This document shows positions 16,741 to 28,800 of a stretch of 64,000 bases of DNA, piece by piece (the first letter of the stretch is position 1; every line of letters starts with the position of its first letter). The translations under genes were made by a program, and so were the position numbers. The notes beneath the pieces are model-generated. The model was given only the letters and a program-made list of their open reading frames with translations. It was not told the DNA's origin and made no database searches. Origin of the DNA: a virus. The DNA lies in IMG/VR virus record IMGVR_UViG_3300002026_000009, positions 1 through 64,000 of that record, one strand, 5' to 3'.

Positions 16741-17020
16741 GTTGACGGAAACGTATTCTGGACGGCGGGGCAGTACCGCCCAGGTCCACCATAAAACACA
16801 CTACGGCACTGTCTTAGTTCAGTGTGGTTCGATTAAGTAGTGTGTTTTATATTGGGCCTGACACAGTTTCGACAGGGTAAAGAGTACTGATATGGACAAC
16901 TCGTCAGGAGTAGACGTTAAAAGCAAACTAAACTAACCGCAAACGACAGCGAGTTCGCCCTAGCCGCTTAAGGCTTGGCTGAGGTTTGACCCGTTACCTT
17001 ATTAACAAAAACGGGTCACT
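16741..17020 (+). ncRNA. ssrA: circularly permuted (two-piece) tmRNA gene
   Basis: The acceptor piece ends ...GGAC-GGCGG-GGCAGTA-CCGCC-CAGGTCC-A-CCA at 16793. A 12-bp hairpin spacer occupies 16795-16850. The coding piece starts GGGCCTGACACAGTTTCGACAGGG at 16853. The acceptor stem GGGCCTG/CAGGTCC has a G3:U70 pair. The tag ORF GCA AAC GAC AGC GAG TTC GCC CTA GCC GCT TAA (16939-16971) encodes ANDSEFALAA. The outer boundaries are uncertain. Confidence 0.75.
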
Positions 17021-17030
17021 AATTTCTCTC

Positions 17031-17059
17031 TTGAAGACGCTGGTTATCTTTGATATAAT
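17031..17059 (+). promoter_or_regulatory. promoter TTGAAG-N17-TATAAT
   Basis: Hexamers read directly. Confidence 0.55.
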
Positions 17060-17083
17060 TATTGTTCTTTAGGAGATTAAAGC

Positions 17084-17278
17084 ATGGCTGGATATACAAA
17101 AGAATTTTTGGTTGATGCCTTTCTTTCGCGGTATATGGACATTGATCCACAAAAATTTGAAGACCTAGCCACTATGGCTAACAACTTCTATGATGCAGAA
17201 GGCCGCGACAAGTTCCGCGCGTACTGCTCACTAGATGCTGAGGCAATTAGGGTTTATAAAAATTGGCTTGCGGCTTAA
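17084..17278 (+). CDS. hypothetical protein
   Basis: AGGAG RBS. TAA stop. Confidence 0.6.
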   Translation: MAGYTKEFLVDAFLSRYMDIDPQKFEDLATMANNFYDAEGRDKFRAYCSLDAEAIRVYKNWLAA

Positions 17279-17317
17279 TTGGTTTTTTGTTATAATTATT
17301 GTTCTCTTGGAGAATAT

Positions 17318-17515
17318 ATGCCTGTAACATTACACCCAGCAGTTTGGAGCAAAGTTTATGATAACCCCAAAGTGGCTAAGGCCGCATGGGATGCCGGTAA
17401 GGATTTTAAAATCCTAGATGGGCCATACTGCTCAAAACGTGACAGGGAGCTGTTAGTTAAACAGTACGCTAAGATTGTTATCGAGTACAAGCCTGGGCAC
17501 TTTCTTGAGGTATAA
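17318..17515 (+). CDS. hypothetical protein
   Basis: ORF 17279..17515. GGAG RBS before ATG 17318. Confidence 0.55.
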   Translation: MPVTLHPAVWSKVYDNPKVAKAAWDAGKDFKILDGPYCSKRDRELLVKQYAKIVIEYKPGHFLEV

Positions 17516-17525
17516 GAATTCTGTC

Positions 17526-17554
17526 TTGAATGTCTTAGCTAAACGGTGTATAAT
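17526..17554 (+). promoter_or_regulatory. promoter TTGAAT-N17-TATAAT
   Basis: Hexamers read directly. No ORF for about 130 nt downstream. Confidence 0.55.
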
Positions 17555-17560
17555 ATAGTT

Positions 17561-17690
17561 TCTTTCGCAATAACTGAGTATACAGTTGGGCGCGAAATAA
17601 AATAAAGGCCAAAACAACCAGTGTGGATTGCTGTGACCCGTCCTCAGTAGCGCAGAGTCGCTAATCAAGTTTTGAAATATAGACTTGATT
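17561..17690 (+). ncRNA. candidate small RNA
   Basis: A promoter-fed, ORF-free stretch of about 130 nt that ends at the hairpin ATCAAGT...ACTTGAT just before the next promoter. Confidence 0.25.
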
Positions 17691-17713
17691 TCAAAGATTA
17701 TTTAGTATATAAT
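17685..17713 (+). promoter_or_regulatory. promoter TTGATT-N17-TATAAT
   Basis: Hexamers read directly. Confidence 0.55.
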
Positions 17714-17741
17714 TAGTCTTTGAAATCAATTGAGAACCAAA

Positions 17742-18041
17742 ATGCGCGAACTTTACGTTATTGAATTTGAGTCAGCTAACTACGCTGGTGCACACGAAAC
17801 CTGCATGGTATGGGCCACTAGCGAAGATGATGCTCAAACGCAATTTGAGCTATCTGGATGGGGCGAAGATTACTACCGCAAACAAGACTACGATCAGTAC
17901 GTAGACGAAAATGGTAGTGATGAAGATGTAGCTTGCTGGTCAACATTTAATCGTGCTGTGCGCGTGGCAGGTTCTAGTTACGAACAGTTTGTTAACGATC
18001 CTTCGCAAGCTAGTTTTTATCAGATTGTTAACGAAGAATAA
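17742..18041 (+). CDS. hypothetical acidic protein
   Basis: ORF 17730..18041. ATG at 17742. TAA stop. Confidence 0.6.
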   Translation: MRELYVIEFESANYAGAHETCMVWATSEDDAQTQFELSGWGEDYYRKQDYDQYVDENGSDEDVACWSTFNRAVRVAGSSYEQFVNDPSQASFYQIVNEE

Positions 18042-18046
18042 ATAAT

Positions 18047-18129
18047 GGAGTAGATGGAACAATGGCGTTCTAGCCGGCTGTAACCCGGTGGCCTCTGGCA
18101 GGTAAGTTCGATCCTTACCTACTCCACCA
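18047..18129 (+). tRNA. tRNA-Tyr (GTA)
   Basis: Acceptor GGAGTAG/CTACTCC, anticodon loop CTGTAAC, long variable arm, T loop TTCGATC, A73, CCA encoded. Confidence 0.85.
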
Positions 18130-18277
18130 ATTTTATTAGAAATCTTCTAGCAATAGACACTTGGGCATACTGGACGCAGTACATGAGGCTTGACAGCCTA
18201 CAAGTGGCCGATACGTAGACTAAAGCCCGGCAGGGTGATTAAGATGCGTAGTCGGGGGATTCCTAATAAGATTAGTC

Positions 18278-18361
18278 GGGAGAGTGGTGGAATGGCATAC
18301 ACAGGGCGCTTAAAACGCCCCGCCGCAAGGCATACGGGTTCGAATCCCGTCTCTCCTACCA
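18278..18361 (+). tRNA. tRNA-Leu (TAA)
   Basis: Class II. Anticodon arm GGGCG-CTTAAAA-CGCCC, long variable arm, T arm ACGGG-TTCGAAT-CCCGT, A73, CCA. Confidence 0.8.
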
Positions 18362-18366
18362 ATTAT

Positions 18367-18443
18367 GCGGATATGACGAAATAGGTAAACGTGTCACGCT
18401 TAGAACGTGAATTCTGGGGGTTCGAGTCCCTCTATCCGCACCA
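18367..18443 (+). tRNA. class I tRNA with anticodon TAG (formally Leu-CUA reader, identity uncertain)
   Basis: Perfect acceptor GCGGATA/TATCCGC, anticodon arm TCACG-CTTAGAA-CGTGA, 5-nt variable loop, A73, CCA. 77 nt. Confidence 0.7.
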
Positions 18444-18454
18444 AGTTTTATGCA

Positions 18455-18526
18455 GCAGTTAGTGTAGTGGAAGCACATGAGTCTGTGAAACTCATAGGAA
18501 CGGATCGTATCCGTACTGACTGCCCA
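18455..18526 (+). tRNA. tRNA-His (GTG)
   Basis: G-1 (18455) lies opposite C73. Acceptor CAGTTAG/CTGACTG, anticodon arm TGAGT-CTGTGAA-ACTCA, reduced D arm, T loop ATCGTAT, CCA. Confidence 0.75.
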
Positions 18527-18538
18527 AAGATAGTTAAT

Positions 18539-18613
18539 GGAGCATTCGTCTATCGGTTAGGACACCTGGTTTTCATCCAGATAAGAGGAGTTCGATTCTC
18601 CTATGCTCTTCCA
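18539..18613 (+). tRNA. tRNA-Glu (TTC)
   Basis: Acceptor GGAGCAT/ATGCTCT, anticodon loop TTTTCAT, T arm AGGAG-TTCGATT-CTCCT. Confidence 0.8.
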
Positions 18614-18642
18614 AATTTTTCAACAGCAACTAAAAGGCAAAC

Positions 18643-18771
18643 ATGAGCTACAATCGCGAACTGGAAACTGACAAGCAAGCTAAACAAACCTCGGACAAAA
18701 ATCTGAAGGCTGCAGCTAGTGAGCGACTGAAGAAAAACGCCGAGTGGAAAAAGCGTAATCAAGCTAAATAA
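18643..18771 (+). CDS. hypothetical small basic protein (42 aa)
   Basis: MSYNRELETDKQAKQ...KKRNQAK. Lies between tRNA genes. Confidence 0.3.
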   Translation: MSYNRELETDKQAKQTSDKNLKAAASERLKKNAEWKKRNQAK

Positions 18772-18778
18772 CCTACGT

Positions 18779-18873
18779 GCCACCATAGCTTAACGGTAAA
18801 GCTCCGGCCTTATACTCCGGCGATGGCTCTAGATTGGGGCATGATATAGGTTCGAATCCTATTGGTGGTACCA
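18779..18873 (+). tRNA. atypical tRNA, anticodon TAT (Ile-AUA type) with 25-nt variable insertion
   Basis: Acceptor GCCACCA/TGGTGGT, D arm GCTT-AACGGTA-AAGC, anticodon arm CCGGC-CTTATAC-TCCGG, extra hairpin at 18821-18845, T arm ATAGG-TTCGAAT-CCTAT, CCA. Confidence 0.55.
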
Positions 18874-18874
18874 A

Positions 18875-18985
18875 ATGAATAAACTAAAAACGCACTTGTT
18901 ACTAACAAGCATAATGTTATGCTGTATACTGTTTGCAGTGTGGTTCAACATCGTAGTGCTGTTTATTAGTTTTGTAAGTAATTAA
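18875..18985 (+). CDS. small membrane protein (36 aa)
   Basis: MNKLKTHLLLTSIMLCCILFAVWFNIVVLFISF. Confidence 0.3.
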   Translation: MNKLKTHLLLTSIMLCCILFAVWFNIVVLFISFVSN

Positions 18986-19061
18986 CGCGGGGTATGTCAG
19001 CGGCAGACGGCTGGGCTCATAACCCAGAGGTCGTGGGTTCGAGTCCCACCCACCGCAACCA
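18986..19061 (+). tRNA. tRNA-Met (CAT), initiator-like
   Basis: The 5' CGCGGGG and the anticodon arm CTGGG-CTCATAA-CCCAG carry three G:C pairs, as in fMet tRNAs. The 3' end is ...CGCAACCA. Confidence 0.75.
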
Positions 19062-19068
19062 AATAAAT

Positions 19069-19143
19069 GCATCGTTAGCTCAGAGGTAGAGTTCCTGATT
19101 TACATTCAGGCTGTCGGCAGTTCGATCCTGTCACGATGTACCA
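19069..19143 (+). tRNA. tRNA-Val (TAC)
   Basis: Acceptor GCATCGT/ACGATGT, anticodon arm CCTGA-TTTACAT-TCAGG, CCA. Confidence 0.85.
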
Positions 19144-19148
19144 AATAT

Positions 19149-19224
19149 CCGTCCGTGGTCTAATGGATAAGGCAAGGGACTTCTATTCCCTACGATATGG
19201 GTTCGACTCCTGTCGGGCGGGCCA
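19149..19224 (+). tRNA. tRNA-Arg (TCT)
   Basis: Acceptor CCGTCCG/CGGGCGG, anticodon arm AGGGA-CTTCTAT-TCCCT, G73, CCA. Confidence 0.85.
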
Positions 19225-19239
19225 ATAATTTAAAATACT

Positions 19240-19407
19240 ATGAACGTACTTGTTGTATCAAATCCAGAACTTGGTTGGGATTGTGTTATTGGTGTCTACG
19301 CTGACACACCACGCAATCGTGAACTACTGCAGTCCAAAGAAGAAAATGACGGGTATGTAATCACAGAGCGAGATCTAGAGCAGGACTACGAAGATTGTAC
19401 TGATTGA
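19240..19407 (+). CDS. hypothetical small acidic protein (55 aa)
   Basis: MNVLVVSNPELGWDCVIGVYAD... TGA stop. Confidence 0.4.
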   Translation: MNVLVVSNPELGWDCVIGVYADTPRNRELLQSKEENDGYVITERDLEQDYEDCTD

Positions 19408-19472
19408 TATTTGTAACTCAACTAACTTAAAGGAGAACATTATGCGATTGTGAACAACAACAGGAGCATAAT

Positions 19473-19832
19473 ATGTCTAGAACATACAAAGACAAAAAGT
19501 GGAAGCTACGTCACCCAGAAAATGAATATACATTTGGTGTCGAACGTGTAGCATATGAAGTACAGCGTAGAAACTGGAGCACAGGCGAACTGCTAGACGA
19601 GTACTCTACACGTTATGCATACTTTGATATTCCAGGTGCAAAAAAGAAAAAGCCTCGTCATGAGCATGGTGTGTGGAACTGGTGCAGGAATACGCCTAGT
19701 TGGTGGAATAAAATGACCAGTCATGTCCCAAAGCGTGCTAAGTGCCGTAATTGGGAAAAGACTCGTACGCTAGATAATCTTGACGAAACCTGTCCAGACT
19801 ACGGACGCAAGCCACACATTTACTACTATTGA
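19473..19832 (+). CDS. hypothetical basic protein
   Basis: ORF track entry. AGGAG RBS. TGA stop. Confidence 0.6.
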   Translation: MSRTYKDKKWKLRHPENEYTFGVERVAYEVQRRNWSTGELLDEYSTRYAYFDIPGAKKKKPRHEHGVWNWCRNTPSWWNKMTSHVPKRAKCRNWEKTRTLDNLDETCPDYGRKPHIYYY

Positions 19833-19842
19833 AAAAATTTAC

Positions 19843-19871
19843 TTGACTTTTGGCTGCATATGTACTATAAT
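19843..19871 (+). promoter_or_regulatory. promoter TTGACT-N17-TATAAT
   Basis: Hexamers read directly. Confidence 0.6.
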
Positions 19872-19901
19872 ATGTATGTGGTCAAAAATTATAGGAAAAA
19901 T

Positions 19902-20630
19902 ATGACAATAGGTATTTATAGGCTAATATTTAAAGGTACGGATAAAGTTTATATTGGTCAGTAGGTAAATATAAAGAATAGATATTCTGAGCACCTGCGT
20001 ACATTTAAAGAAGGAAGTGCATCTTGTAAACTGCAAGATGCATATAATTTATACGATATACCTAGCCTAGATATACTGTGTTAGTGTAATCTAACTGAGT
20101 TAGACTCACTAGAGAATGAGGCCATAGAACTTTTTGATAGTGCTAATAATGGGTTTAATACATTTACTCATGAAGGTGGGTCTATACGAAGTGCTGGTGG
20201 GCTAGACCACTGGAACTCGAAGTATCCTAAACGACTTATATTAAAAGTCTTTGCAGCTCTCATTAGATACAAAGACTTATCGTATGCTGCAATAGCTAGA
20301 AAGTTAAACACTTCTCCGTATTTAGTACACAATGTTGTATCTGGGAAGCATCATTTATGGTTGAAAGATTCATATCCAGGTAAATTTGCTATAATGTTAG
20401 AGCTTAAAGCCGGTAAAAAAGATAGAACTAAGAAAACAATAAGTACAGAATTAGGTAATATACCAGTACTTGTATCCCCATCAGGTGATTATTTCAAAGT
20501 ACCGAATATTCGACAGTTTTGTGTAGAGCATCCAGACTTTTGTAGTAACATAGATGCATCTAGATCGTCTTTAGGTAAAGTAATTAAAGGCACAAAGACT
20601 TCTCACAAAGGCTGGGTATTAGCCTCTTAA
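19902..20630 (+). CDS. GIY-YIG homing endonuclease, 2 in-frame TAG (19962, 20082)
   Basis: One frame reads MTIGIYRLIFKGTDKVYIGQ-TAG-VNIKNRYSEH...KGWVLAS, 243 codons with no TAA or TGA. The ORF track shows only the last third (20361..20630). Confidence 0.7.
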
Positions 20631-20638
20631 ATATTGTC

Positions 20639-20667
20639 TTGATTTTGTAAACCAAACCGTGTATAAT
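20639..20667 (+). promoter_or_regulatory. promoter TTGATT-N17-TATAAT
   Basis: Hexamers read directly. Confidence 0.55.
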
Positions 20668-20687
20668 TATTGTTTTAAAGGATAATT

Positions 20688-21647
20688 ATGCTCGGTTTCG
20701 CTTGTAAAATTAACAGTGCATACGATACAGCAGCTTCCGGGCTGAATATCAAGGGTACAACTCTTACATGGTTACGTGCTAACCCTGATAAAGCGTATAT
20801 CAAGCTATCTGACTTGTTGCGCGATAATCTCAAGGCATTAGAGGCTCAGATTGAGTTTATTGGTGCCCTGCCAAAGCAGCAGCGAATGTTTCGTATTACC
20901 AGTGACTTGCTTCCCGCATACACTACTGATGATTTTATGCCATTCTACTACCAAGATCATATCCAGCAAATACTGGAACATATACTTGGTCGTATTGGTG
21001 CTCGTGCTAGATAGTTAGGCATTCGCCTTTCAATGCATCCTGGCCAGTTCTGTGTATTAGCTAGCGATAATCCAGCGGTTGTAGAAAATTCTATTGCAGA
21101 GTTTGAGTATCACGCTGATATTATTCGTTGGCTAGGGTACGGTAAAACATTTCAAGACTTTAAGTGTAATATCCACATTGGTGGTAAACGTGGCCCTGCG
21201 GGACTGCGTGAAGCGTACTACCAGCTTAGTCAAACTGCACGTAACTGCATTACAGTTGAAAATCAGGAATTTACCTGGGGACTAGAGCATTGCCTAGAAT
21301 TGGCTGATATTATACCTACTGTATTCGATATTCACCACGACTGGATTTACAACGGCAAATATCGTACAGAAATTCCTCTAGACGTGCTAACTAGCTGGCG
21401 TGGGCTTCGTCCTACAATGCATGTTAGCTGTTCTAGAGTTCGTGAGCATGACGCAACGGCTATAGCTACCAAGCAAGCACTACGTGCTCATAGTGATTAC
21501 ATCTACGAGTCTGTGCTGGTAGACGAGCTACTGCCATGTTACCATGAACACTTTGATATAATGGTTGAGGCCAAAGAAAAGAATTTTGCTCAGCAACAGC
21601 TTGTCGATAGTTGGGTAGAAAAATTTGGATTTGACCCCAATGTTTGA
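20688..21647 (+). CDS. UV-damage endonuclease (UvdE family), 1 in-frame TAG (21012)
   Basis: ORFs 20688..21014 and 21033..21647 are in frame. Motifs FRITSDLLP, IRLSMHPGQF, NIHIGG, ENQE and DIHHD span the TAG. Confidence 0.75.
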
Positions 21648-21659
21648 TTACTGTATAAT
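21631..21659 (+). promoter_or_regulatory. promoter TTGACC-N17-TATAAT
   Basis: Hexamers read directly. Feeds the tRNA block at 21.8-22.4 kb. Confidence 0.55.
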
Positions 21660-21804
21660 TTATTTATAAATTGAAAGAGCGACTCATTATCCTTAAATGG
21701 TAGCGAGAAAGGCGCGTTTACTAGGATCGTAAAAACAACTAGACGGGCAGTGTATCAATGCTTAGTAATAATTTGATGCCGGTACCCATACGACAATGGG
21801 TTAT

Positions 21805-21880
21805 CTCTGGTTCGGTTAGCGGCTATACCTCTACGTTTGGGACGTAGCTTTCGTAGGTTCGAGTCCTACACCAGAGACCA
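21805..21880 (+). tRNA. tRNA-Pro (TGG)
   Basis: C1:G72 acceptor CTCTGGT/ACCAGAG, anticodon arm CTACG-TTTGGGA-CGTAG, CCA. Confidence 0.85.
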
Positions 21881-22061
21881 TAAGTAAATATCTTGCTAGT
21901 TCCATGTATTTGGAACCTTGCACTCCAGTGAAATAAGGGTACCCGGCCGGTATATCCCTAAAGCGGAGTAGTTCTAGTATAGCTAGCCTTTAGCGGGGTA
22001 GTGCAAAAGCTAGAGTATGCGTAATTTGACTACGTAGGCAGCAAACAGGATATTTAATTAT

Positions 22062-22136
22062 GGGCTATTAGTGCTAACGGGAACACGCCTGGTTTGCAAC
22101 CAGGAATTGACAGTTCGATCCTGTCATGGTCCACCA
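22062..22136 (+). tRNA. tRNA-Ala (TGC)
   Basis: G3:U70 acceptor GGGCTAT/ATGGTCC, anticodon arm CCTGG-TTTGCAA-CCAGG, CCA. Confidence 0.85.
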
Positions 22137-22331
22137 AAACCTACCTTAGGGTTCGTTGTCGCAACGGTTAGAGGCTAATACCTCAGGCGTCCGTGATCTA
22201 TATAGTCGTCACGTTAAACCTCTTTATGAGTGACCACAGCCGCCAAGCAGTGGGGTACAAAGGAACTATACGTATTATGTACGCGGTAGGAGCGAAATGC
22301 CTACGCTGGAGTCGTAACCAGCACTAATTCA

Positions 22332-23285: not shown

Positions 23286-23295
23286 AAAGAAAACG

Positions 23296-23577
23296 ATGAT
23301 AAAAGTACCTGATGAGTGGTTGCCACTAGCCAATGAGTTGTTAGCAGATTTAAATCTGCTGAAAAAACAAAAAGTATACGAGACACTAGAAGTCTTATGG
23401 ATAGTAGAAAAAGACAGGCACTTAAAAGTTGCCTATAGATTAGAGCCTGATGTTGATGAATTATATGAAGTAATCATGAACATCATTAAGTATTACGAGA
23501 AACATATGCAAGCTATTTCCTTTACCAAAACAAGTAATATCCAGGGTAATACTGGAGGAAGTAGCACAGCCTTTTGA
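23296..23577 (+). CDS. hypothetical protein
   Basis: ORF track entry. TGA stop. Confidence 0.6.
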   Translation: MIKVPDEWLPLANELLADLNLLKKQKVYETLEVLWIVEKDRHLKVAYRLEPDVDELYEVIMNIIKYYEKHMQAISFTKTSNIQGNTGGSSTAF

Positions 23578-23601
23578 TTTATAGACTTACTCTATAAACT
23601 C

Positions 23602-23626
23602 AAGGGGCCAATTGGCCCCTTTTTTA
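23602..23626 (+). terminator. intrinsic terminator AAGGGGCC-AATT-GGCCCCTT + T run
   Basis: Read directly. Confidence 0.7.
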
Positions 23627-23628
23627 TT

Positions 23629-23703
23629 GCCCCATTATCCTTAATGGCAGAGGTCTGCTTTTGTAATGCAGGTGTGTGTGTTCGATTCATACATGGGGCA
23701 CCA
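23629..23703 (+). tRNA. tRNA-Thr (TGT)
   Basis: Acceptor GCCCCAT/ATGGGGC, anticodon loop TTTGTAA, CCA. Confidence 0.8.
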
Positions 23704-23714
23704 GAATTTCTGTC

Positions 23715-23743
23715 TTGATTTACCAAAGCCTTTCGTGTATAAT
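23715..23743 (+). promoter_or_regulatory. promoter TTGATT-N17-TATAAT
   Basis: Hexamers read directly. Confidence 0.55.
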
Positions 23744-23767
23744 AGAGGCTTAAACAGTGAGAAAAAC

Positions 23768-23962
23768 ATGAATTACCGTAAGCGCAAAAAAGCTATTACC
23801 AAGAAGCTAGCGCTACAAGGTGTACGTTTAGCGTACAATCCTCTTAACCGACATGCAGGCAGCGAATATGAGTTTTACCTATTCCAATTGCGTGTTTTAA
23901 AAAATATGAAAAGAGCACTAAATGAGCGCAAAAAATCGAAAAAAGCTGCCAAAGCCGCGTAA
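23768..23962 (+). CDS. hypothetical highly basic protein (64 aa)
   Basis: ORF 23666..23962, trimmed to the Met after the tRNA and promoter. Confidence 0.5.
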   Translation: MNYRKRKKAITKKLALQGVRLAYNPLNRHAGSEYEFYLFQLRVLKNMKRALNERKKSKKAAKAA

Positions 23963-24049
23963 CATATTTGCGACTTTGGCATGTAAACGGGTTGCTGGTT
24001 CCCATACAAAACCATACAAATCACTTCGCGGTAGGCTAAATCGCGATAC

Positions 24050-24124
24050 GGAGGTATAACTTAACGGTTAAAGTACGGCACTTTTAATGCTGTAATCAGG
24101 GTTCGATTCCCTGTGCCTCCACCA
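24050..24124 (+). tRNA. tRNA-Lys (TTT)
   Basis: Acceptor GGAGGTA/TGCCTCC, anticodon arm CGGCA-CTTTTAA-TGCTG, CCA. Confidence 0.85.
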
Positions 24125-24165
24125 TATTTAAATGTATTGTTTAGTGCCTTTAAATATGGTAATGT

Positions 24166-24240
24166 TGGGGGTTAGTGAAATGGTTATCACCACGCACTTT
24201 GACTGCGTTATTTCAAGTTCGAGTCTTGAACCCTCTGCCA
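24166..24240 (+). tRNA. tRNA-Gln (TTG)
   Basis: U1 is unpaired and G73 is present, as in bacterial tRNA-Gln. Perfect D arm GTGA/TCAC. Anticodon arm ACGCA-CTTTGAC-TGCGT, CCA. Confidence 0.85.
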
Positions 24241-24253
24241 AATAAGGAAACGT

Positions 24254-24592
24254 ATGGAAAGACCAGACTGCTGGAAGATTGTTAAAATAACTGCTCCAAC
24301 CGGAGAAATACACTATCGTGTAGCAATGGGCTGGTACGGTGGTTATTTAGGTAGTGATAGCTGGCAGATGAATAGTGGAATTGCTAGCCATTACTTTACA
24401 AACGAGGATAAAGATGTTGTTTTTGTTGGCGTTAGTGGTAGCGAATATATATGTTCACTACACAATGAAGGTTTAAACGGCTACGTTTCAAGCGTGGTTG
24501 TTGGTTATAGTAAAAAACTAGCCAATATAGGTGCTAGTATTGAAGAAGTATTTTTTAGCGAATACTGCGTGTGTAGTTCAATGGTAGAATAA
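24254..24592 (+). CDS. hypothetical protein
   Basis: ORF track entry. The 3' end overlaps tRNA-Gly by 26 nt. Confidence 0.5.
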   Translation: MERPDCWKIVKITAPTGEIHYRVAMGWYGGYLGSDSWQMNSGIASHYFTNEDKDVVFVGVSGSEYICSLHNEGLNGYVSSVVVGYSKKLANIGASIEEVFFSEYCVCSSMVE

Positions 24593-24640
24593 GACGTTGC
24601 CAACGTTTGGACGAGAGTTCGATCCTCTCCACCCGCACCA
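24567..24640 (+). tRNA. tRNA-Gly (GCC)
   Basis: Acceptor GCGTGTG/CACCCGC (one U:C mismatch), anticodon loop TTGCCAA, CCA. Confidence 0.8.
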
Positions 24641-24641
24641 T

Positions 24642-24716
24642 GCTGGATAGACCGAGTGGCGAGGTACCGTCTTGATAAGGCGGCTGTAGATGGATCGTAA
24701 CCATCATCCAGTACCA
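24642..24716 (+). tRNA. tRNA-Ile (GAT)
   Basis: Acceptor GCTGGAT/ATCCAGT, anticodon arm CCGTC-TTGATAA-GGCGG, T arm GATGG-ATCGTAA-CCATC, CCA. Confidence 0.75.
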
Positions 24717-24725
24717 AAATAAAAT

Positions 24726-24804
24726 ACCGTATAGGCCGACAAGGTGTTAGGCAAATGGCTGTTAACCATTCTCAAGCTGGGTTCGATTCCTAGATACGGT
24801 GCCA
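24726..24804 (+). tRNA. tRNA-Asn (GTT)
   Basis: Acceptor ACCGTAT/ATACGGT, anticodon arm AATGG-CTGTTAA-CCATT, G73, CCA. Confidence 0.8.
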
Positions 24805-24811
24805 ATTAAAT

Positions 24812-24888
24812 CCCGATATAGCTCAAGTGGACTAGAGCGTGCGTGTGCACTGCGCAAGATGGTGGTTCGAATCCGCCTTGAGGGGCCA
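24812..24888 (+). tRNA. tRNA-like gene with defective acceptor stem (anticodon position GCA); possible pseudo-tRNA
   Basis: The D arm (GCTC/GAGC) and T arm (GGTGG-TTCGAAT-CCGCC) are perfect and the gene ends GCCA. Only 4 of 7 acceptor pairs form, and the loop GTGCACT is atypical. Confidence 0.4.
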
Positions 24889-25027
24889 AGAAAAAAGTAT
24901 CGTATAGGGAACATTGCCGAATACTTCACCCTGGACTGGGCGTCCATCGGAACCTATAGACCTTCTGCAGGGGGTTTATAACAGTGTTTATTTAACATTG
25001 TTATAAGTCAGGCAAAGAAATTTGCAC

Positions 25028-25056
25028 TTGCCTTGTTTCCTAAAACCCTGTATAAT
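25028..25056 (+). promoter_or_regulatory. promoter TTGCCT-N17-TATAAT
   Basis: Hexamers read directly. Feeds the 560-nt non-coding leader of rsr. Confidence 0.55.
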
Positions 25057-25069
25057 TATATCTTTAACA

Positions 25070-25276
25070 GCGACTAAAACAACACACTGTTGTAGCGAAA
25101 GTAAACTGCTTGGCGGCAGTTAAAATCAGTTACTTCAAACTATGATGGTCTGGGCTTGTAACCGGACGCCCCTCATATACGGTTAGTATATAATCCCTAA
25201 TGTAAGGCATGTTGTAGGTTAATGAACATGCTGAGCACTGATGCGGATATTCTCAATAGTGTGTTGCTTTAGTTGT
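25070..25276 (+). ncRNA. Y-RNA-like module 1 (long terminal stem)
   Basis: Positions 25070-25088 pair with 25258-25276 over 19 positions with one A:C mismatch. The interior contains CAGTTACTTC (25127) and the hairpins 25177-25191 and 25207-25232. Confidence 0.45.
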
Positions 25277-25283
25277 AGTGTTT

Positions 25284-25371
25284 AAATCGGTTACTTCTTT
25301 TTATTTGTTCTAAAAACGACTGGGTGTTCGATTCCCCGGAGGCCGCTGGTGCATGGGCCAATATCCGATTT
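25284..25371 (+). ncRNA. Y-RNA-like module 2
   Basis: Closing stem AAATCGG/CCGATTT, then TTACTTC, then a degenerate T-arm (GGGTGTTCGATTCCCC) and a D-arm-like GGCC-GCTGGTGCAT-GGCC. Confidence 0.4.
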
Positions 25372-25482
25372 TCCTGTTCTCAACTTTCTTCTTTGGTGTC
25401 TCGACCGTTACGTTCTCGTAATATAAAGACTTGATTTTAGGTAAACCGTCTCCCTAAAGCCAACCCTATTTTAGTAGTGTTA

Positions 25483-25586
25483 GAAACAGTTACTTCACTT
25501 TTAATGAAGAGGTCGGTGGTTCGAGTCCACCCAGGTTGGTCTCTAGCCTGTAGCTCAGTTGGATAGAGCGCTAAAATCTCTGTTTC
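25483..25586 (+). ncRNA. Y-RNA-like module 3 with permuted tRNA-like domain (YrlA-type)
   Basis: Closing stem GAAACAG/CTGTTTC. Order of elements: hairpin CTTCA-CTTTTAA-TGAAG, AGGTC, T arm GGTGG-TTCGAGT-CCACC, acceptor 3' strand CAGGTTG, cap GTCTC, acceptor 5' strand TAGCCTG, TA, D arm GCTC-AGTTGGATA-GAGC. Confidence 0.6.
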
Positions 25587-25621
25587 GTCTTGTTCTCTAA
25601 ATTCTTTTTTTAAAGGAAACT

Positions 25622-26932
25622 ATGTCTTCGATCAATCGCGTATCCCGTGTAGTTAATAAAACTTTCGAGGGTGCTGCTGCAAAACTAATTACTCCTGAAG
25701 CTAAGCTGAATCGTGTGGTTATGGCTTCCATGCTGTGGGAAGGACAATTTTACATCGACGGCCAAAAGTCGGCTGATGTAATTAAAGACCTTGTTGCTAA
25801 AGTCGACCCTAAGGTGGTAGAGTCTATTGCAATCAAGGCACGCGAAGCCATGAAACTTCGCCATGTGCCACTGTTCATTACCCGTGAACTGGCACGTATC
25901 GGCAAACTCTCACACGAGGTGCTAACTCGTGTTATCCAGCGTCCTGACGAATTGGGTGAGTTTGTATCAATGTATTGGATGGATAAGAAACAACCGCTGT
26001 CCAATCAAGTTAAACGTGGTCTAGCTAACGCTTTCCACAAGTTTAACGAATACCAGTTTGCTAAGTGGAATAAGTCTAGCGCAGCTGTGAAGCTCCGTGA
26101 TGTACTATTCCTAACCCACGCTAAACCTCGTACAGAGGGTGAGGCCGATCTCTTCAAGCGTATCGCTGATGAGAAACTGGAAACTCCAGATACTTGGGAA
26201 ACCGAGCTGTCTGGTGGTGCGGATAAAGGTGCTACCTTTACTCGCCTTATGAAGGAAAATAAGTTGGGTGCACTGGCATTCCTTCGTAACCTGCGGAATA
26301 TGGTACAGGCTGGAGTTGACGAAAGCCTTATCCGGGAATACGCTCGTGGTGTGAATACTGACCGTGTTCTTCCATTCCGCTTCCTTGCAGCAGCCCGCAT
26401 CGTTCCTCAATTCGAGGACATGCTGGAAAGCATGATGCTTCGTAGCCTTGAAAGCCACGAAAAGCTGCCAGGAAAAACCGTTCTGCTAATCGACGTTAGT
26501 GGCTCGATGTTCGGTACGAAAGTATCTGAAAAGAGCGATCTTGATCGTTTTGACGCAGCAGCTGCACTTGCTATTCTAGCTCGTGAAATCTGTGAAGAAG
26601 TAGAAATCTACTCCTTCTCGTACAACGCAGTTCGCGTTCCAGCCCGTCGTGGCATGGCACTGGTAGAGGCTATTCGCAACAGCCAAAACCACGGTGGTAC
26701 AGCAACAGGTAAAGCTGTTCGTAGCATTAACGCTAATGTTGAGTATACTCGCTGTATCATCTTCACCGATGAACAGTCGCATGACGTAGTACCTAACCCA
26801 ACAGGTATTGGTTATATCATCAACGTAGCTGCCTACGAAAACGGTATCGGTAACTCTAACTGGACTACCATTAGTGGTATGTCTGAAGCCGTTATCGACT
26901 ATATCCAGTTGTCTGAAAAGACAGTGGATTAA
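25622..26932 (+). CDS. rsr: Ro60-related protein (Rsr): TROVE + vWA domains
   Basis: 436 aa. The N-terminal part is TROVE-like. The vWA MIDAS motif LLIDVSGSM is present. AAAGGAAA RBS, TAA stop. Confidence 0.75.
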   Translation: MSSINRVSRVVNKTFEGAAAKLITPEAKLNRVVMASMLWEGQFYIDGQKSADVIKDLVAKVDPKVVESIAIKAREAMKLRHVPLFITRELARIGKLSHEVLTRVIQRPDELGEFVSMYWMDKKQPLSNQVKRGLANAFHKFNEYQFAKWNKSSAAVKLRDVLFLTHAKPRTEGEADLFKRIADEKLETPDTWETELSGGADKGATFTRLMKENKLGALAFLRNLRNMVQAGVDESLIREYARGVNTDRVLPFRFLAAARIVPQFEDMLESMMLRSLESHEKLPGKTVLLIDVSGSMFGTKVSEKSDLDRFDAAAALAILAREICEEVEIYSFSYNAVRVPARRGMALVEAIRNSQNHGGTATGKAVRSINANVEYTRCIIFTDEQSHDVVPNPTGIGYIINVAAYENGIGNSNWTTISGMSEAVIDYIQLSEKTVD

Positions 26933-27075
26933 AGACTAGAATTGATCCTTCTAGTCTACAACGCGTGATGCTCCAGGAACCACTTGCCTATGGTCGAGAG
27001 CTAGTAACCACACGGTAGTCAGTCCGGTTAAATAATGTTGGCTCTAAGCTTCGGCTTAGAAAAGTGCTTAGTGTA

Positions 27076-27116
27076 GTAACAGTTACTTCATTTTTGGTAT
27101 AATAAAAGCCTGTTAC
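27076..27116 (+). ncRNA. Y-RNA-like module 4 (stem-loop only)
   Basis: GTAACAG/CTGTTAC stem enclosing TTACTTC... Confidence 0.3.
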
Positions 27117-27272
27117 GCTTTTTCTAGCTCTTTTCTAAGCCATAGCGTATATTTTGATTACATCACTAACCACACTTCTAGTACCGCACAGTTGGGTGCA
27201 TGCAGGGTTCGAATCCCAGGGCAAAAACATCAAAATAGTTTTTCTTGGCTAATTTTTACAATCCTTAGCGTA

Positions 27273-27381
27273 TAAACAGTTACTTCTTAACCTCAATAGC
27301 CGTACCTGGGTTCGATTCCCAGCATCCCTAAACTGGGGTGTAATCTAATGGTAGGATTGGCTAACTAAAAAAGCCTGTTTA
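27273..27381 (+). ncRNA. Y-RNA-like module 5 with permuted tRNA-like domain (YrlA-type)
   Basis: Closing stem TAAACAG/CTGTTTA, then TTACTTC. T arm CTGGG-TTCGATT-CCCAG, acceptor CATCCCT-AAAC-TGGGGTG capped by a tetraloop, then TA and the D arm ATCT-AATGGTA-GGAT. Confidence 0.6.
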
Positions 27382-27405
27382 ATTTTTCTAGGATTACTTT
27401 ATATT

Positions 27406-27492
27406 GGAAGATGTGTTGCAAGGTGCGACATCGGTTTGCTAAACCGCCGTTCAGAAATGGGCTGATAGGTTCGATTCCTATATCTTCCGCCA
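27406..27492 (+). tRNA. tRNA-Ser (GCT)
   Basis: Class II. Acceptor GGAAGAT/ATCTTCC, anticodon loop TTGCTAA, variable arm CGTTCAGAAATGGGCTG, G73, CCA. Confidence 0.85.
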
Positions 27493-27505
27493 ACTAATAA
27501 ATATT

Positions 27506-27733
27506 ATGCACGACCCTAAATCGCTAGAAGCGTTCTTCTTAGAGTATATGCCTAGGACTAAAGAAGTTCTAGAGTCACTATGGGCTACAGATCGACGTGA
27601 GTTGTCCTAGGTTCTTCAAGAGTTTATGCGCGCAAGCGGAGAAAATTCTTGGATGTACCCGTATTTTTCCGATCTAGATTATTACACACGAACAGCACAA
27701 CATAAGTACACCAATCCCTGGGAAGTACTGTGA
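27506..27733 (+). CDS. hypothetical protein, 1 in-frame TAG (27608)
   Basis: MHDPKSLEAFF...RELS-TAG-VLQEFMRASG... The TGA stop overlaps the GTG start of the next gene. Confidence 0.45.
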
Positions 27734-27954
27734 GCAATATATCCACTGATTACGTCGCTAGTGATACCACTAGGCGACGTATTGTTGTTACTAGTCTCAT
27801 CCTTAGCTGGGCCATTATAGGCTGGCTAATTTTATACGGCAATCAATCTAATAGCCTACACGAATCGGCTTTAGCCTGGAGTTACGCGTACAATATTTTA
27901 GTACTATTTGCATATAGCTTTGGTACTATTATTAAAGACTACTTTAAGAAATAA
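27730..27954 (+). CDS. membrane protein (74 aa)
   Basis: ORF track entry. Two hydrophobic segments. Confidence 0.5.
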   Translation: MSNISTDYVASDTTRRRIVVTSLILSWAIIGWLILYGNQSNSLHESALAWSYAYNILVLFAYSFGTIIKDYFKK

Positions 27955-27955
27955 T

Positions 27956-28029
27956 ATCTCCTTAGTGTAATGGCAACACGTCGCGCTCCAAACGCGTTAA
28001 TCAGGGTTCGAGTCCTTGAGGGGATGCCA
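27956..28029 (+). tRNA. tRNA-Trp (CCA)
   Basis: Acceptor ATCTCCT/AGGGGAT, anticodon loop CTCCAAA, G73, CCA. Confidence 0.85.
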
Positions 28030-28035
28030 AAACCT

Positions 28036-28127
28036 GGAAAGTAGTGCAGCGGGGCTGGTCCTGCGACGAGCCTTGAAAACTCGGTTCTCAGAAATGGGAT
28101 GGGGTTCGACTCCTCTGCTTTCCTCCA
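28036..28127 (+). tRNA. tRNA-Ser (TGA)
   Basis: Class II. Acceptor GGAAAGT/GCTTTCC, anticodon loop CTTGAAA, variable arm containing CAGAAATGG. The D loop is long and position 73 is U. Confidence 0.7.
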
Positions 28128-28166
28128 ATTTTTAACCAGCGCCCACCGCGCAAAATTTAGCACATT

Positions 28167-28793
28167 ATGAGTAAAGATTCCAAAAGCATTGACCTTGATA
28201 ACATTGTTAGTGGAGGCTCTAATGTCTTTACTAAAACAGTTGCACGTGACTATAGCTTCTACCTTAGTGGAGAAATTCTAGAGCCTAGTGAATATATAGA
28301 GTGGTTTGATACTATTCGCACTGCTGGGCCCAACGACAGCGTAACCATTCACATTAATTAGATGGGTGGCAATCTAGATACAGCTATTCAGTTTATTCGT
28401 GTTCTAGGTGAGACTCAAGCAGAGGTTATTACTAGCGTTGAAGGTTCTTGCATGAGTGCAGCTACCATGATCTTTTTATAGGGTCATAGTCTACAGATTA
28501 CACCTTTTAGCCTTTTCATGTTCCACAACTATAGTGGAGGTGCCTTTGGTAAGGGCGGGGAAATGTACGACAACATTATGTTCGAACGTAAGTGGTCAAG
28601 TGAATTTTTACACCATGTTTACAAAGACTTCTTAACAGCAGAAGAAATTAATTCTATGCTAGATAATAAAGATATTTGGATGGGACATACAGAGGCGGAA
28701 GATCGCTGCCGTAAAATGATGAAGGCGCGTACCGCAGCAACAAAAGCTCAACAGTGTGAACTTGATATAGACGACGCAGATGACGCCAGTTAA
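28167..28793 (+). CDS. ClpP-like serine protease, 2 in-frame TAG (28359, 28479)
   Basis: ORFs 28167..28361 and 28518..28793 plus the piece between them share one frame. IHIN-TAG-MGG resembles ClpP INSPGG, GSCMSAA carries the Ser, and MFHNYSGGAFG resembles MIHQPxGG with the His. Confidence 0.7.
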
Positions 28794-28800
28794 TTAACAC

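What the first reader, a model, noticed from the sequence alone, without database searches (positions are those of the whole stretch)
16741..28793. Possible translation and RNA quality-control island linked to amber recoding
Within 12 kb the phage carries four elements that could act together:
- a suppressor tRNA(CUA)
- a tmRNA whose tag ends in ALAA, the class of degron handled by ClpXP in bacteria
- a ClpP-like protease gene (28167..28793) that lies far from any head genes and is itself TAG-dependent
- an Rsr/Y-RNA module, which in bacteria is linked to structured-RNA decay

Amber suppression makes ribosomes read through host TAG stops and can drive them to mRNA 3' ends. That would raise demand for trans-translation and for proteolysis of tagged products.

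The co-location suggests a coordinated system that buffers the cost of recoding. This link is my hypothesis and is not demonstrated by the sequence.
Basis: inference. Interest (0 to 1): 0.75.

Follow-up and report, generated by a model that had tools for sequence, protein, structure and literature searches.

The report
Phage tRNA block with amber suppressor
All four elements are real, but the tmRNA, the ClpP-like protease and the Rsr/Y-RNA module are inherited parts of the tRNA block of a large group of T5-like water phages that lack the amber suppressor, so they did not arise to buffer recoding.

Summary
All four elements exist. There is a two-piece tmRNA (16683-17046, tag ANDSEFALAA). There is an 87-nt tRNA(CUA) (23199-23285). 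Rsr (25622-26932) has two upstream Y-like RNAs. A ClpP-family gene (28167-28793) carries two in-frame TAGs and an intact Ser-His-Asp triad.

The window is the early region of a T5-like phage.

In 77 non-redundant related loci that carry the ClpP-like gene:
- 50 lie in tRNA arrays.
- 41 carry a two-piece tmRNA, always directly upstream of the ClpP-like gene.
- Several also carry rsr and the Y-like RNAs.
- None has a tRNA(CUA), and none has an in-frame stop.

The quality-control genes are therefore ancestral and the suppressor is a lineage-specific addition. The proposed link to recoding is not supported.

The ClpP-like gene is not the prohead protease. It matches the early "Clp protease" of T5-like phages, whose function is unknown.

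Two results are new:
- The tmRNA→ClpP-like gene pair is conserved in this group.
- TAG recoding here is sparse and most likely reads as Ser. TAG falls on a Ser that is invariant in 83 of 83 ClpP-like homologues, and the tRNA is Ser-like. The recoding touches about ten accessory genes, most heavily the GIY-YIG homing endonucleases. Core replication genes have no in-frame TAG.

The parts
16683..17046 (+). Two-piece (permuted) tmRNA. The tag ORF at 16939-16971 reads ANDSEFALAA*. The acceptor piece ends in CCA at 16785-16791.
   Evidence: Rfam RF04321 scores 123 bits and RF01850 scores 108 bits. The variant T loop GGCAGUA is shared with relatives. Homologous tmRNAs occur in 47 related loci.
18047..30579 (+). 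tRNA array: 26 genes called by ARAGORN, plus tRNA-Ser(UGA) at 28040-28124 and a weak tRNA-like element at 24812-24885.
19902..20630 (+). GIY-YIG homing endonuclease HE1, with 2 in-frame TAGs.
   Evidence: Pfam GIY-YIG. Paralogue alignment. GC content 0.35.
20688..21647 (+). UV-damage endonuclease UvdE, with 1 in-frame TAG at codon 109.
   Evidence: Pfam UvdE, E 1e-32, with the match spanning the TAG. 24 homologues in relatives have no in-frame stop.
22488..23213 (+). GIY-YIG homing endonuclease HE2, with 10 in-frame TAGs. It sits between tRNA-Asp and the suppressor tRNA and overlaps the start of the suppressor by 15 nt.
23199..23285 (+). Amber suppressor tRNA(CUA). It is a type II tRNA with a 5-bp variable arm capped by a GAAA loop and a G73 discriminator base, so it is most likely charged with Ser.
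   Evidence: ARAGORN. Rfam tRNA, 48 bits. Sequence and fold. Its closest type II tRNAs are tRNA-Ser.
25284..25371 (+). Second Y-like RNA, with a closing stem and a T-arm-like hairpin.
   Evidence: Conserved in 8 relatives, with 11 of 18 predicted pairs showing compensatory changes.
25483..25589 (+). YrlA-like Y RNA with a tRNA-like module, immediately upstream of rsr.
   Evidence: Rfam YrlA scores 40.9 bits, E 7e-7, below the gathering score. Conserved upstream of rsr in relatives. Covariation. 78% DNA identity to the region upstream of rsr in Xanthomonas phages.
25622..26932 (+). Rsr (Ro60 orthologue, TROVE plus vWA domains), with no in-frame TAG.
28167..28793 (+). ClpP-family serine peptidase with in-frame TAGs at codons 65 and 105. 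The triad residues S97, H120 and D169 are intact.
57770..58495 (-). PhoH-like ATPase with 1 in-frame TAG at codon 166.
   Evidence: The alignment to PDB entry 3b85 covers residues 38-238 and spans the TAG. Phage homologues cover residues 4-238.
51583..52035 (+). PD-(D/E)XK endonuclease with 1 in-frame TAG.
   Evidence: Pfam PDDEXK_15, E 2.8e-30, covers residues 5-113 and spans the TAG at codon 91.
52100..52810 (+). GIY-YIG homing endonuclease HE4, with 1 in-frame TAG.
56816..57727 (+). GIY-YIG homing endonuclease HE3, with 6 in-frame TAGs.

Best explanation
The 12-kb stretch is the tRNA and accessory-gene block of the early region of an uncultivated T5-like phage, probably one that infects a betaproteobacterium.

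The block was inherited by descent. It carries a near-complete tRNA set, a two-piece tmRNA with a host-type ...ALAA degron, Rsr with two Y RNAs, and an early ClpP-family peptidase. That peptidase corresponds to the T5/BF23 'Clp protease' of unknown function.

Inferred role, from the known functions of these families:
- After host shut-off the phage maintains the translation apparatus.
- The tmRNA, working with host SmpB, EF-Tu and AlaRS, frees ribosomes stalled on broken mRNAs and tags the unfinished peptides.
- Clp proteases degrade the tagged peptides.
- Rsr and the Y RNAs, working with host PNPase, remove structured or damaged RNA.

A tRNA-Ser-like amber suppressor was added later, in this lineage only. 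It allows TAG to be read as a sense codon, most likely Ser, in about ten genes. Most of these are accessory or selfish genes: 4-5 homing endonucleases, UvdE, ClpP-like, PhoH, a PD-(D/E)XK nuclease and a membrane protein. Core replication genes keep the standard code.

The quality-control genes are therefore not an adaptation to recoding.

What is shown: the identity of each element, the ancestry and gene order, the absence of the suppressor in relatives, and the use of TAG as a sense codon. What is inferred: the physiological roles, the Ser assignment, and any coupling between the tmRNA and the ClpP-like protein.
For: T5-like identity:
- The DNA polymerase is 51% identical to those of Vibrio T5-like phages.
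- The window carries the matching replication and nucleotide-metabolism genes.
- One product gives a weak Pfam Phage_T5_A2 hit.

Ancestry of the quality-control genes:
- Of 77 non-redundant ClpP-like loci, 50 lie in tRNA arrays and 41 carry a two-piece tmRNA. In all 41 the tmRNA lies less than 1 kb upstream of the ClpP-like gene.
- rsr and the Y RNAs lie in the same arrays.
- None of these loci has a tRNA(CUA), and none of the homologues has an in-frame stop.

TAG is read as a sense codon:
- All 28 in-frame stops in the ten affected genes are TAG.
- Homology runs across the TAG in ClpP-like, UvdE, PhoH, the PD-(D/E)XK nuclease and the homing endonucleases.
- The predicted gene set holds only 22 in-frame TAGs, all in a minority of genes. 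The homology-supported core genes (polymerase, helicases, primase, ligase, SbcCD, RNR, ThyA, Rsr) have none.

TAG most likely means Ser:
- ClpP-like codon 65 aligns to Ser in 83 of 83 homologues, within the YINS motif.
- The 'YIGQS' and two other conserved Ser positions in the homing endonucleases align to TAG.
- The tRNA has G73 and a variable arm like the phage's own tRNA-Ser genes.

Not the prohead protease:
- The best PHROG match is 'ATP-dependent protease', E 2e-62, against E 9e-25 for the nearest head-protease family.
- In Erwinia phage KEY the orthologue lies next to dNMP kinase, holin and lysozyme.
- BF23 has both a Clp protease (ORF45, function unknown) and a separate prohead protease (ORF164) (PMC10644984).

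Known precedents:
- Two-piece tmRNAs in phages (PMC9004378).
- Rsr/YrlA modules in phages (PMC4201824).
Against: - The relatives are sampled as fragments of 21 kb or less centred on ClpP-like or rsr, so a suppressor elsewhere in those genomes would have been missed.
- Only 64 kb of this phage is visible. Most of its late genes and its own prohead protease were not seen.
- PhoH codon 166 aligns to the conserved Asn of DEAQN, not to Ser. The tRNA's acceptor stem is identical to that of the phage tRNA-Tyr. The Ser assignment is therefore not certain.
- One unrelated metagenomic phage (L103/L104) has a tRNA(CUA) about 1 kb from a one-piece tmRNA. A broader association between suppressors and tmRNAs is therefore not excluded.
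Confidence: 0.75

Rival explanations
1. One reading: the suppressor, tmRNA, ClpP-like gene and Rsr/Y RNA form a co-adapted system. Its job is to absorb the cost of amber read-through, namely non-stop ribosomes, tagged products and aberrant RNA.
For: - All four elements lie within 12 kb on one strand.
- The ClpP-like gene itself needs the suppressor.
- One unrelated phage lineage (L103/L104) has a tRNA(CUA) about 1 kb from a tmRNA.
Against: - The three quality-control elements are present and keep their gene order in dozens of relatives that have no suppressor and no in-frame TAG.
- L097, another TAG-recoded phage with a type II tRNA(CUA), shows no tmRNA, ClpP-like or rsr gene within 14.5 kb.
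- Few phage genes end in TAG, and those that do have nearby back-up stops.
- In this lineage the tmRNA has moved 11 kb away from the ClpP-like gene, rather than closer to it.
Confidence: 0.08
2. The tmRNA and the ClpP-like gene form a functional phage cassette that is independent of recoding. The phage tmRNA tags peptides with ...ALAA. The phage ClpP-like subunit, docked to host ClpX or ClpA or mixed into host ClpP rings, degrades them. This recycles ribosomes and amino acids during infection.
For: - The tmRNA lies directly upstream of the ClpP-like gene, on the same strand, in 41 of 41 tmRNA-bearing loci. This holds across sub-lineages that differ in their flanking tRNAs, and ClpP-like identity to the window protein is only 52-69%.
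- The catalytic triad is invariant.
- All significant PDB matches to the family profile are genuine ClpP proteins.
- The tags are canonical Clp degrons.
Against: - The adjacency may be one ancestral arrangement passed on by descent.
- ClpP-like genes occur without any tmRNA in 27 loci that have no tRNAs and in 9 tRNA-array loci, as well as in T5-like, Pakpunavirus and Xanthomonas jumbo phages.
- Phages of the phiCbK type have a tmRNA and rsr but gave no match to this ClpP-like protein.
- The N-terminal region does not align to the axial loops of ClpP.
- The pair is separated in the window itself.
Confidence: 0.3
3. The TAG-interrupted genes are decaying pseudogenes and the tRNA(CUA) is an incidental mutant tRNA with no coding role.
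For: In-frame stops are concentrated in dispensable or selfish genes, and the homing endonucleases are AT-rich.
Against: - All 28 interruptions are TAG. None is TAA or TGA, and there are no frameshifts, across about 2,300 codons.
- Catalytic residues and full-length homology are retained.
- A TAG replaces a Ser that is invariant in 83 of 83 homologues.
- A well-formed cognate tRNA is present.
Confidence: 0.04
4. The ClpP-like protein is the phage's prohead (head-maturation) protease.
For: It gives weaker matches to head-maturation protease PHROGs. BF23 Clp protease was detected at a low level in virions.
Against: - The best family match is not a head protease.
- The gene sits in the early tRNA block, far from any structural gene.
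- In T5-like phages the orthologue lies among early genes, and a separate prohead protease exists.
- In Xanthomonas jumbo phages it lies between the ligase and primase genes.
Confidence: 0.03

Closest known systems
tRNA and accessory-gene region of T5-like phages (Demerecviridae), including the early 'Clp protease' (BF23 ORF45, Erwinia phage KEY gp121)
   Same: - Early-region block of about 20-28 tRNA genes, interspersed with small ORFs and homing endonucleases.
- A ClpP-family gene separate from the prohead protease.
- The same replication gene set.
   Different: - Cultured T5-like phages examined here (KEY) show no tmRNA, rsr or suppressor in this block.
- Identity to KEY's Clp protease is only 31%.
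- Here the ClpP-like gene needs amber suppression.
Phage-encoded two-piece tmRNAs of aquatic phages (for example Melnitz and pelagiphages; PMC9004378)
   Same: A permuted tmRNA with a canonical degron, carried by an aquatic phage and expressed from the early region.
   Different: - The phage family is different.
- No glutamine riboswitch was found here.
- In this clade the tmRNA is paired with a ClpP-like gene. No description of that pairing turned up in the papers I searched.
Bacterial and phage Rsr (Ro60) with YrlA-type Y RNAs (Chen et al. 2014, PMC4201824)
   Same: A TROVE/vWA protein with an adjacent tRNA-like Y RNA on the same strand, and more than one Y RNA per locus.
   Different: - The Y RNA scores below Rfam's YrlA gathering threshold.
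- The second Y-like RNA sits elsewhere in the tRNA array in relatives, between tRNA-Asn and tRNA-Gln.
- No rtcBA genes are present.
Stop-codon recoding in phages with suppressor tRNAs (code 15, TAG→Gln; Borges et al., bioRxiv 10.1101/2021.08.26.457843)
   Same: A phage-encoded tRNA(CUA), in-frame TAGs in only a subset of genes, and core early genes in the standard code.
   Different: - TAG most likely reads as Ser through a type II tRNA, not as Gln.
- The recoded genes seen are mainly early accessory or selfish genes, not lysis or structural genes.
- Two late genes still seem to end in TAG.
- No RF2 or aaRS gene is present in the window.
- That survey reported only TAG→Gln and TGA→Trp for phages whose code differs from the host's.
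E. coli supD (serU) and T4 psu1 serine-inserting amber suppressors (from my own knowledge)
   Same: A tRNA-Ser whose anticodon can be changed to CUA without losing charging, because SerRS does not read the anticodon.
   Different: Those are laboratory mutants. Here the suppressor is a natural, fixed gene on which several intact genes depend.

Membership tests
ClpP peptidase family (MEROPS S14, Pfam PF00574) | The Pfam CLP_protease match exceeds the curated cut-off. | tested here: met
   29.7 bits against a cut-off of 20.2. A profile built from 14 homologues matches only ClpP chains in the PDB; the best is 3q7h, E 2.6e-10.
ClpP peptidase family (MEROPS S14, Pfam PF00574) | A Ser-His-Asp catalytic triad at the conserved positions. 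| tested here: met
   S97, H120 and D169 are invariant across 14 aligned homologues and align to the ClpP triad motifs.
ClpP peptidase family (MEROPS S14, Pfam PF00574) | N-terminal axial loops and hydrophobic pockets for docking ClpX/ClpA, and assembly into a tetradecamer. | tested here: inconclusive
   The PDB alignments begin at about residue 45, so the N-terminal region does not align. Assembly cannot be tested with these tools.
Phage prohead (head-maturation) protease | The gene lies in the head module beside the portal, scaffold or capsid genes, and its best family match is a head protease. | tested here: not met
   The gene lies in the early tRNA block. The best PHROG match is 'ATP-dependent protease', E 2e-62, against E 9e-25 for the nearest head-protease family. 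T5-like phages have a separate prohead protease.
tmRNA (two-piece / permuted) | The covariance-model match exceeds the gathering score over the full model. | tested here: met
   RF04321 scores 123 bits against 47, over model positions 1-213. RF01850 scores 108 bits against 84.
tmRNA (two-piece / permuted) | An alanine-accepting tRNA-like domain (G3·U70 pair, CCA end) and a tag ORF that ends in a stop codon. | tested here: met
   The GGGCCUG/CAGGUCC-ACCA pairing is read from the sequence. The tag reads ANDSEFALAA and ends in TAA.
tmRNA (two-piece / permuted) | The partner protein SmpB is available. | tested here: not met
   No SmpB domain was found in the island ORFs or in the larger ORFs of the window. 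SmpB is presumably supplied by the host.
Rsr/Ro60 - Y RNA module | A TROVE-domain protein with a vWA domain. | tested here: met
   TROVE gives E 5.5e-13, above the cut-off. The vWA matches fall just below their cut-offs. phrog_850 gives E 2.8e-46.
Rsr/Ro60 - Y RNA module | An adjacent Y RNA with a closing stem and a tRNA-like module (YrlA). | tested here: inconclusive
   Rfam YrlA scores 40.9 bits, below the gathering score of 69, with E 7e-7. Against that, the position is conserved upstream of rsr in at least 9 relatives, and 8 of 19 predicted pairs show compensatory changes.
Stop-codon-recoded phage (code 15 type) | A phage tRNA with a CUA anticodon, plus in-frame TAGs at sense positions of conserved genes. 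| tested here: met
Stop-codon-recoded phage (code 15 type) | TAG is read as Gln. | tested here: not met
   TAG falls on a Ser that is invariant in 83 of 83 homologues. The tRNA is type II with G73, and GlnRS substrates are type I tRNAs.
Stop-codon-recoded phage (code 15 type) | Recoding is concentrated in late structural and lysis genes. | tested here: inconclusive
   About 1,300 visible codons of late structural genes have no internal TAG, and two of these genes end in TAG. Most of the late region lies outside the window.

The most novel reading that the evidence does not exclude
This T5-like phage may be caught early in a TAG→Ser code change that began with a selfish element.
- A homing endonuclease packed with TAG codons (HE2: 10 TAGs against 14 standard Ser codons) sits against the suppressor tRNA.
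- Once the suppressor was fixed, TAGs drifted into useful accessory genes (ClpP-like, UvdE, PhoH, a nuclease). The suppressor then became indispensable, as a neutral ratchet.

Separately, the conserved tmRNA→ClpP-like pair may be a phage-borne cassette for trans-translation and proteolysis. If so, it would give a first functional clue for the orphan early 'Clp protease' of T5-like phages.
Probability: 0.2. Interest if true: 0.7.

Novelty: new variant of a known kind. Interest (0 to 1): 0.45.

Why it matters
- It removes an attractive but unsupported story. Phage tmRNA, ClpP-like and Rsr genes here are ordinary inherited cargo of a tRNA block, not a device that compensates for recoding.
- It gives a concrete, testable lead for the function of the T5-family early Clp protease: degradation of ssrA-tagged peptides.
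- If the Ser assignment holds, this is a natural phage amber reassignment outside the two classes reported so far (TAG→Gln and TGA→Trp).
- The pattern is sparse and biased toward selfish genes, which bears on how code changes begin.

Tried and rejected
- ARAGORN does not call the window's tmRNA, because the T loop is a variant. I used Rfam and nhmmer instead.
- Megablast of the island against cultured phages found only the Y-RNA segment and a tmRNA fragment.
- I tried to extend the genome beyond the window to see its late genes and its own prohead protease. Exact-protein look-ups for three other window proteins found nothing. The window-end 48-mer is absent from IMG/VR.
- A search for PhoH relatives gave no confirmed locus.
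- The first metagenome pattern found nothing. The second found only unrelated tRNA(CUA) genes.
- The pVp-1 annotation did not help locate a head protease.
- I looked for a tmRNA relic upstream of the ClpP-like gene. There is none; the weak 17-bit Rfam hit at 27306-27344 is noise.
- TAG = Gln was rejected because of the invariant Ser at ClpP-like codon 65 and the type II tRNA.
- TAG = Tyr was rejected because of G73 and the Ser-type variable arm, although the acceptor stem equals that of the phage tRNA-Tyr.
- The L008 'tRNA-Pyl' was judged doubtful. It has a poor T arm and L008 shows no clear recoding.

Full report
**1. What is in the sequence**

ARAGORN finds 26 tRNA genes on the + strand between 18047 and 30579. 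One of them is an 87-nt tRNA with anticodon CUA at 23199-23285. This tRNA scores 48 bits on the Rfam tRNA model, E 1.6e-9.

Rfam finds a full-length two-piece (permuted) tmRNA at 16683-17046. tmRNA_permuted scores 123 bits and beta_tmRNA scores 108 bits, both well above their gathering scores. ARAGORN misses it, probably because its T loop is GGCAGUA. Several relatives share that variant, so it is not decay. The tag ORF at 16939-16971 reads ANDSEFALAA and ends in TAA. The acceptor stem has the G3·U70 pair.

The ORF at 25622-26932 is an Rsr/Ro60 orthologue (TROVE E 5.5e-13, phrog_850 E 2.8e-46). Just upstream, at 25483-25589, lies a YrlA-like RNA. It scores 40.9 bits, E 7e-7, which is below Rfam's gathering score. 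It is nevertheless conserved at the same position in at least nine relatives and shows compensatory changes. A second Y-like RNA at 25284-25371 is also conserved and covaries.

The ORF at 28167-28793 is a ClpP-family protein with in-frame TAGs at codons 65 and 105. The one addition is that the tmRNA is of the two-piece kind.

**2. What kind of genome this is**

The large ORFs are replication and nucleotide-metabolism genes:
- family A DNA polymerase, two helicases and a primase
- NAD-dependent ligase and SbcCD
- RNR, ThyA, dUTPase and a flap endonuclease

The polymerase is 51% identical to those of Vibrio T5-like phages. There is no close DNA relative among cultured phages. An identical stretch is on a 47-kb contig of JGI metagenome 3300001765.

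The region is therefore the early tRNA and accessory block of a T5-like phage. The beta-type two-piece tmRNA and the best Rsr match (58%, to a Ralstonia phage) suggest a betaproteobacterial host. That host assignment is an inference.

**3. The co-occurrence test**

I fetched 15 IMG/VR loci that encode Rsr relatives and 80 that encode ClpP-like relatives. I scanned them with ARAGORN, nhmmer and tblastn.

Among 77 non-redundant ClpP-like loci:
- 50 lie in tRNA arrays.
- 41 of those carry a two-piece tmRNA, with tags such as ANDSQFALAA and ANDNTYALAA.
- In all 41 the tmRNA lies on the same strand, less than 1 kb upstream of the ClpP-like gene. Usually nothing lies between them.
- rsr and the Y-like RNAs lie 3-4 kb further upstream in 8 of the 31 loci that have enough flank.
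- None has a tRNA(CUA).

The only other candidates were two. One is an odd 80-nt tRNA in L008, with a poor T arm and no clear recoding in that locus. The other is in an unrelated phage, L097.

No homologue of ClpP-like (83), UvdE (24), Rsr (25), ligase or polymerase in the relatives contains an in-frame stop.

The tmRNA, the ClpP-like gene and Rsr/Y RNA are thus ancestral cargo of this clade. The suppressor and the TAG codons are a later addition specific to this lineage. In the window the tmRNA has in fact been moved 11 kb away from the ClpP-like gene.

**4. Is the ClpP-like protein the prohead protease?**

No.
- Its best PHROG match is 'ATP-dependent protease' (E 2e-62). The head-protease families score far lower.
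- Its profile matches only genuine ClpP structures, and S97, H120 and D169 are invariant.
- In Erwinia phage KEY (Markadamsvirinae) the orthologue sits beside dNMP kinase, holin and lysozyme, next to the tRNA array.
- In Xanthomonas jumbo phages it sits between the ligase and primase genes.

I could not see this phage's own head module.

**5. The recoding**

Treating TAG as a sense codon joins or extends ORFs into full-length homologues in about ten genes:

| Gene | Coordinates | In-frame TAGs |
|---|---|---|
| Homing-endonuclease-like | 3292-3996 | 1 |
| HE1 (GIY-YIG) | 19902-20630 | 2 |
| UvdE | 20688-21647 | 1 |
| HE2 (GIY-YIG) | 22488-23213 | 10 |
| ClpP-like | 28167-28793 | 2 |
| PD-(D/E)XK nuclease | 51583-52035 | 1 |
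| HE4 (GIY-YIG) | 52100-52810 | 1 |
| HE3 (GIY-YIG) | 56816-57727 | 6 |
| PhoH | 57770-58495 (- strand) | 1 |
| Membrane protein | 59031-59450 (- strand) | 3 |

All 28 interruptions are TAG. The core replication genes have none. About 1,300 codons of visible late structural genes also have no internal TAG. Two of those late genes appear to end in TAG, with back-up stops 14 and 21 codons downstream. This is sparse, partial recoding, not a genome-wide code change.

**6. Which amino acid?**

Evidence for Ser:
- ClpP-like codon 65 aligns to Ser in 83 of 83 homologues, within the YINS motif. Codon 105 aligns to Ser in 23 of 83.
- Three conserved Ser positions in the homing endonucleases align to TAG.
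- The tRNA is type II, with a 5-bp variable arm capped by GAAA like the phage's tRNA-Ser(GCU) and tRNA-Ser(UGA), and it has G73. The phage tRNA-Tyr has A73.
- Its nearest type II tRNAs are tRNA-Ser.

Evidence against Ser:
- PhoH codon 166 replaces the Asn of DEAQN.
- The acceptor stem equals that of the phage tRNA-Tyr.

I put Ser at about 0.7. A large survey reported only TAG→Gln and TGA→Trp in phages whose code differs from the host's (bioRxiv 10.1101/2021.08.26.457843). I found no paper describing a natural TAG→Ser phage in the searchable library.

**7. How it most likely works**

The roles below are inferred from the families. The phage brings its own tRNAs. It brings a tmRNA that uses host SmpB, EF-Tu and AlaRS; no SmpB gene is present in the window. 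It brings an Rsr/Y-RNA particle and a ClpP-type peptidase, which together keep translation running after host shut-off.

The conserved tmRNA→ClpP-like adjacency is suggestive of coupling between tagging and degradation. It could equally be inherited gene order. ClpP-like genes are common without a tmRNA, and tmRNA-bearing phiCbK-type phages gave no match to this protein. I rate coupling at about 0.3.

The suppressor makes a set of mostly dispensable genes, including the ClpP-like gene, depend on it. The gene with the highest TAG density, HE2, abuts the tRNA. The homing endonucleases are AT-rich, with GC 0.33-0.35 against about 0.41 for the window. This fits a selfish origin followed by drift, but that is speculation.

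**8. Verdict**

The elements are real and the island is a genuine conserved block. Its proposed link to amber recoding fails the comparative test.

Each component is of a known kind:
- phage tmRNAs, PMC9004378
- phage Rsr/YrlA modules, PMC4201824
- the T5-family Clp protease, PMC10644984
- phage suppressor tRNAs

Two things are new: the conserved tmRNA→ClpP-like pair in an uncultivated T5-like clade, and a probable TAG→Ser suppressor with sparse recoding biased toward selfish genes.

Caveat: relatives were seen only as fragments of 21 kb or less. One unrelated phage lineage does place a tRNA(CUA) about 1 kb from a tmRNA. A global survey is therefore still needed.

Noticed in passing
window 14973-15461 (+): The ORF matches Pfam PF18909, the N-terminal domain of dATP/dGTP diphosphohydrolase (MazZ-like), E 4e-36. 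It is conserved in relatives at 60-80% identity. It might point to a modified-base pathway. No PurZ-like gene was seen in the window.
   Followed up: no
window 42027-43745, 43983-44888, 45175-45543 (+): The family A DNA polymerase appears split. A 572-aa N-terminal ORF and a 122-aa ORF matching the C-terminal end of DNA_pol_A are separated by a 301-aa ORF. That ORF has no family hit and a low coding score, so it may be an inserted mobile gene.
   Followed up: partly
window 18779-18873 (+); also L002 266-357, L004 7911-8004 and others: tRNA-Ile(UAU) is 92-95 nt long in this phage and in its relatives. It carries an extra segment of about 20 nt after the anticodon arm, so it is a conserved unusual tRNA.
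   Followed up: no
window 24812-24885 (+): This tRNA-like element scores 32 bits on the Rfam tRNA model. ARAGORN does not call it, and its acceptor stem is imperfect. It follows tRNA-Asn, the position where relatives carry the second Y-like RNA.
   Followed up: no
window 60263-60715 and 62149-63867 (-): Two late, probably structural, genes end in TAG. The next in-frame stop lies 14 and 21 codons downstream. With the suppressor present they should also be made as C-terminally extended forms.
   Followed up: no
window 29183-29476 (+); about 40 related loci just downstream of the ClpP-like gene: A small protein with an ExoX-like_C / QSregVF_b motif is a conserved downstream neighbour of the ClpP-like gene. 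The conserved order is therefore tmRNA, ClpP-like gene, then this ORF.
   Followed up: partly
L103 9198-9563 and 10601-10675; L104 981-1346 and 2384-2458: An unrelated metagenomic phage lineage has a 75-nt tRNA(CUA) about 1 kb from a one-piece tmRNA (tag ADDYYEEYALAA) inside a tRNA array. No ClpP-like or rsr homologue lies in the fetched flanks.
   Followed up: partly
L097 561-2501 (-) and 5784-5872 (-): Another IMG/VR phage has an 89-nt type II tRNA(CUA) with the same anticodon arm. Its structural-looking genes carry 2-8 in-frame TAGs. This suggests that long-arm amber suppressors occur in more than one phage group.
   Followed up: partly
window 16760-16776 (tmRNA T arm); L028, L030, L041, L043, L050, L080: A sub-lineage of these phage tmRNAs has a non-canonical T loop, GGCAGUA/GGCAGUG, instead of GGUUCGA. 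ARAGORN missed the tmRNA in the window and in three of these relatives (L030, L041, L043).
   Followed up: partly
window 3292-3996 (+): This ORF encodes an HTH domain, a treble-clef zinc finger and a nuclease-like domain. It becomes a single 234-aa protein only if the TAG at codon 93 is read through. It is probably another mobile endonuclease.
   Followed up: no
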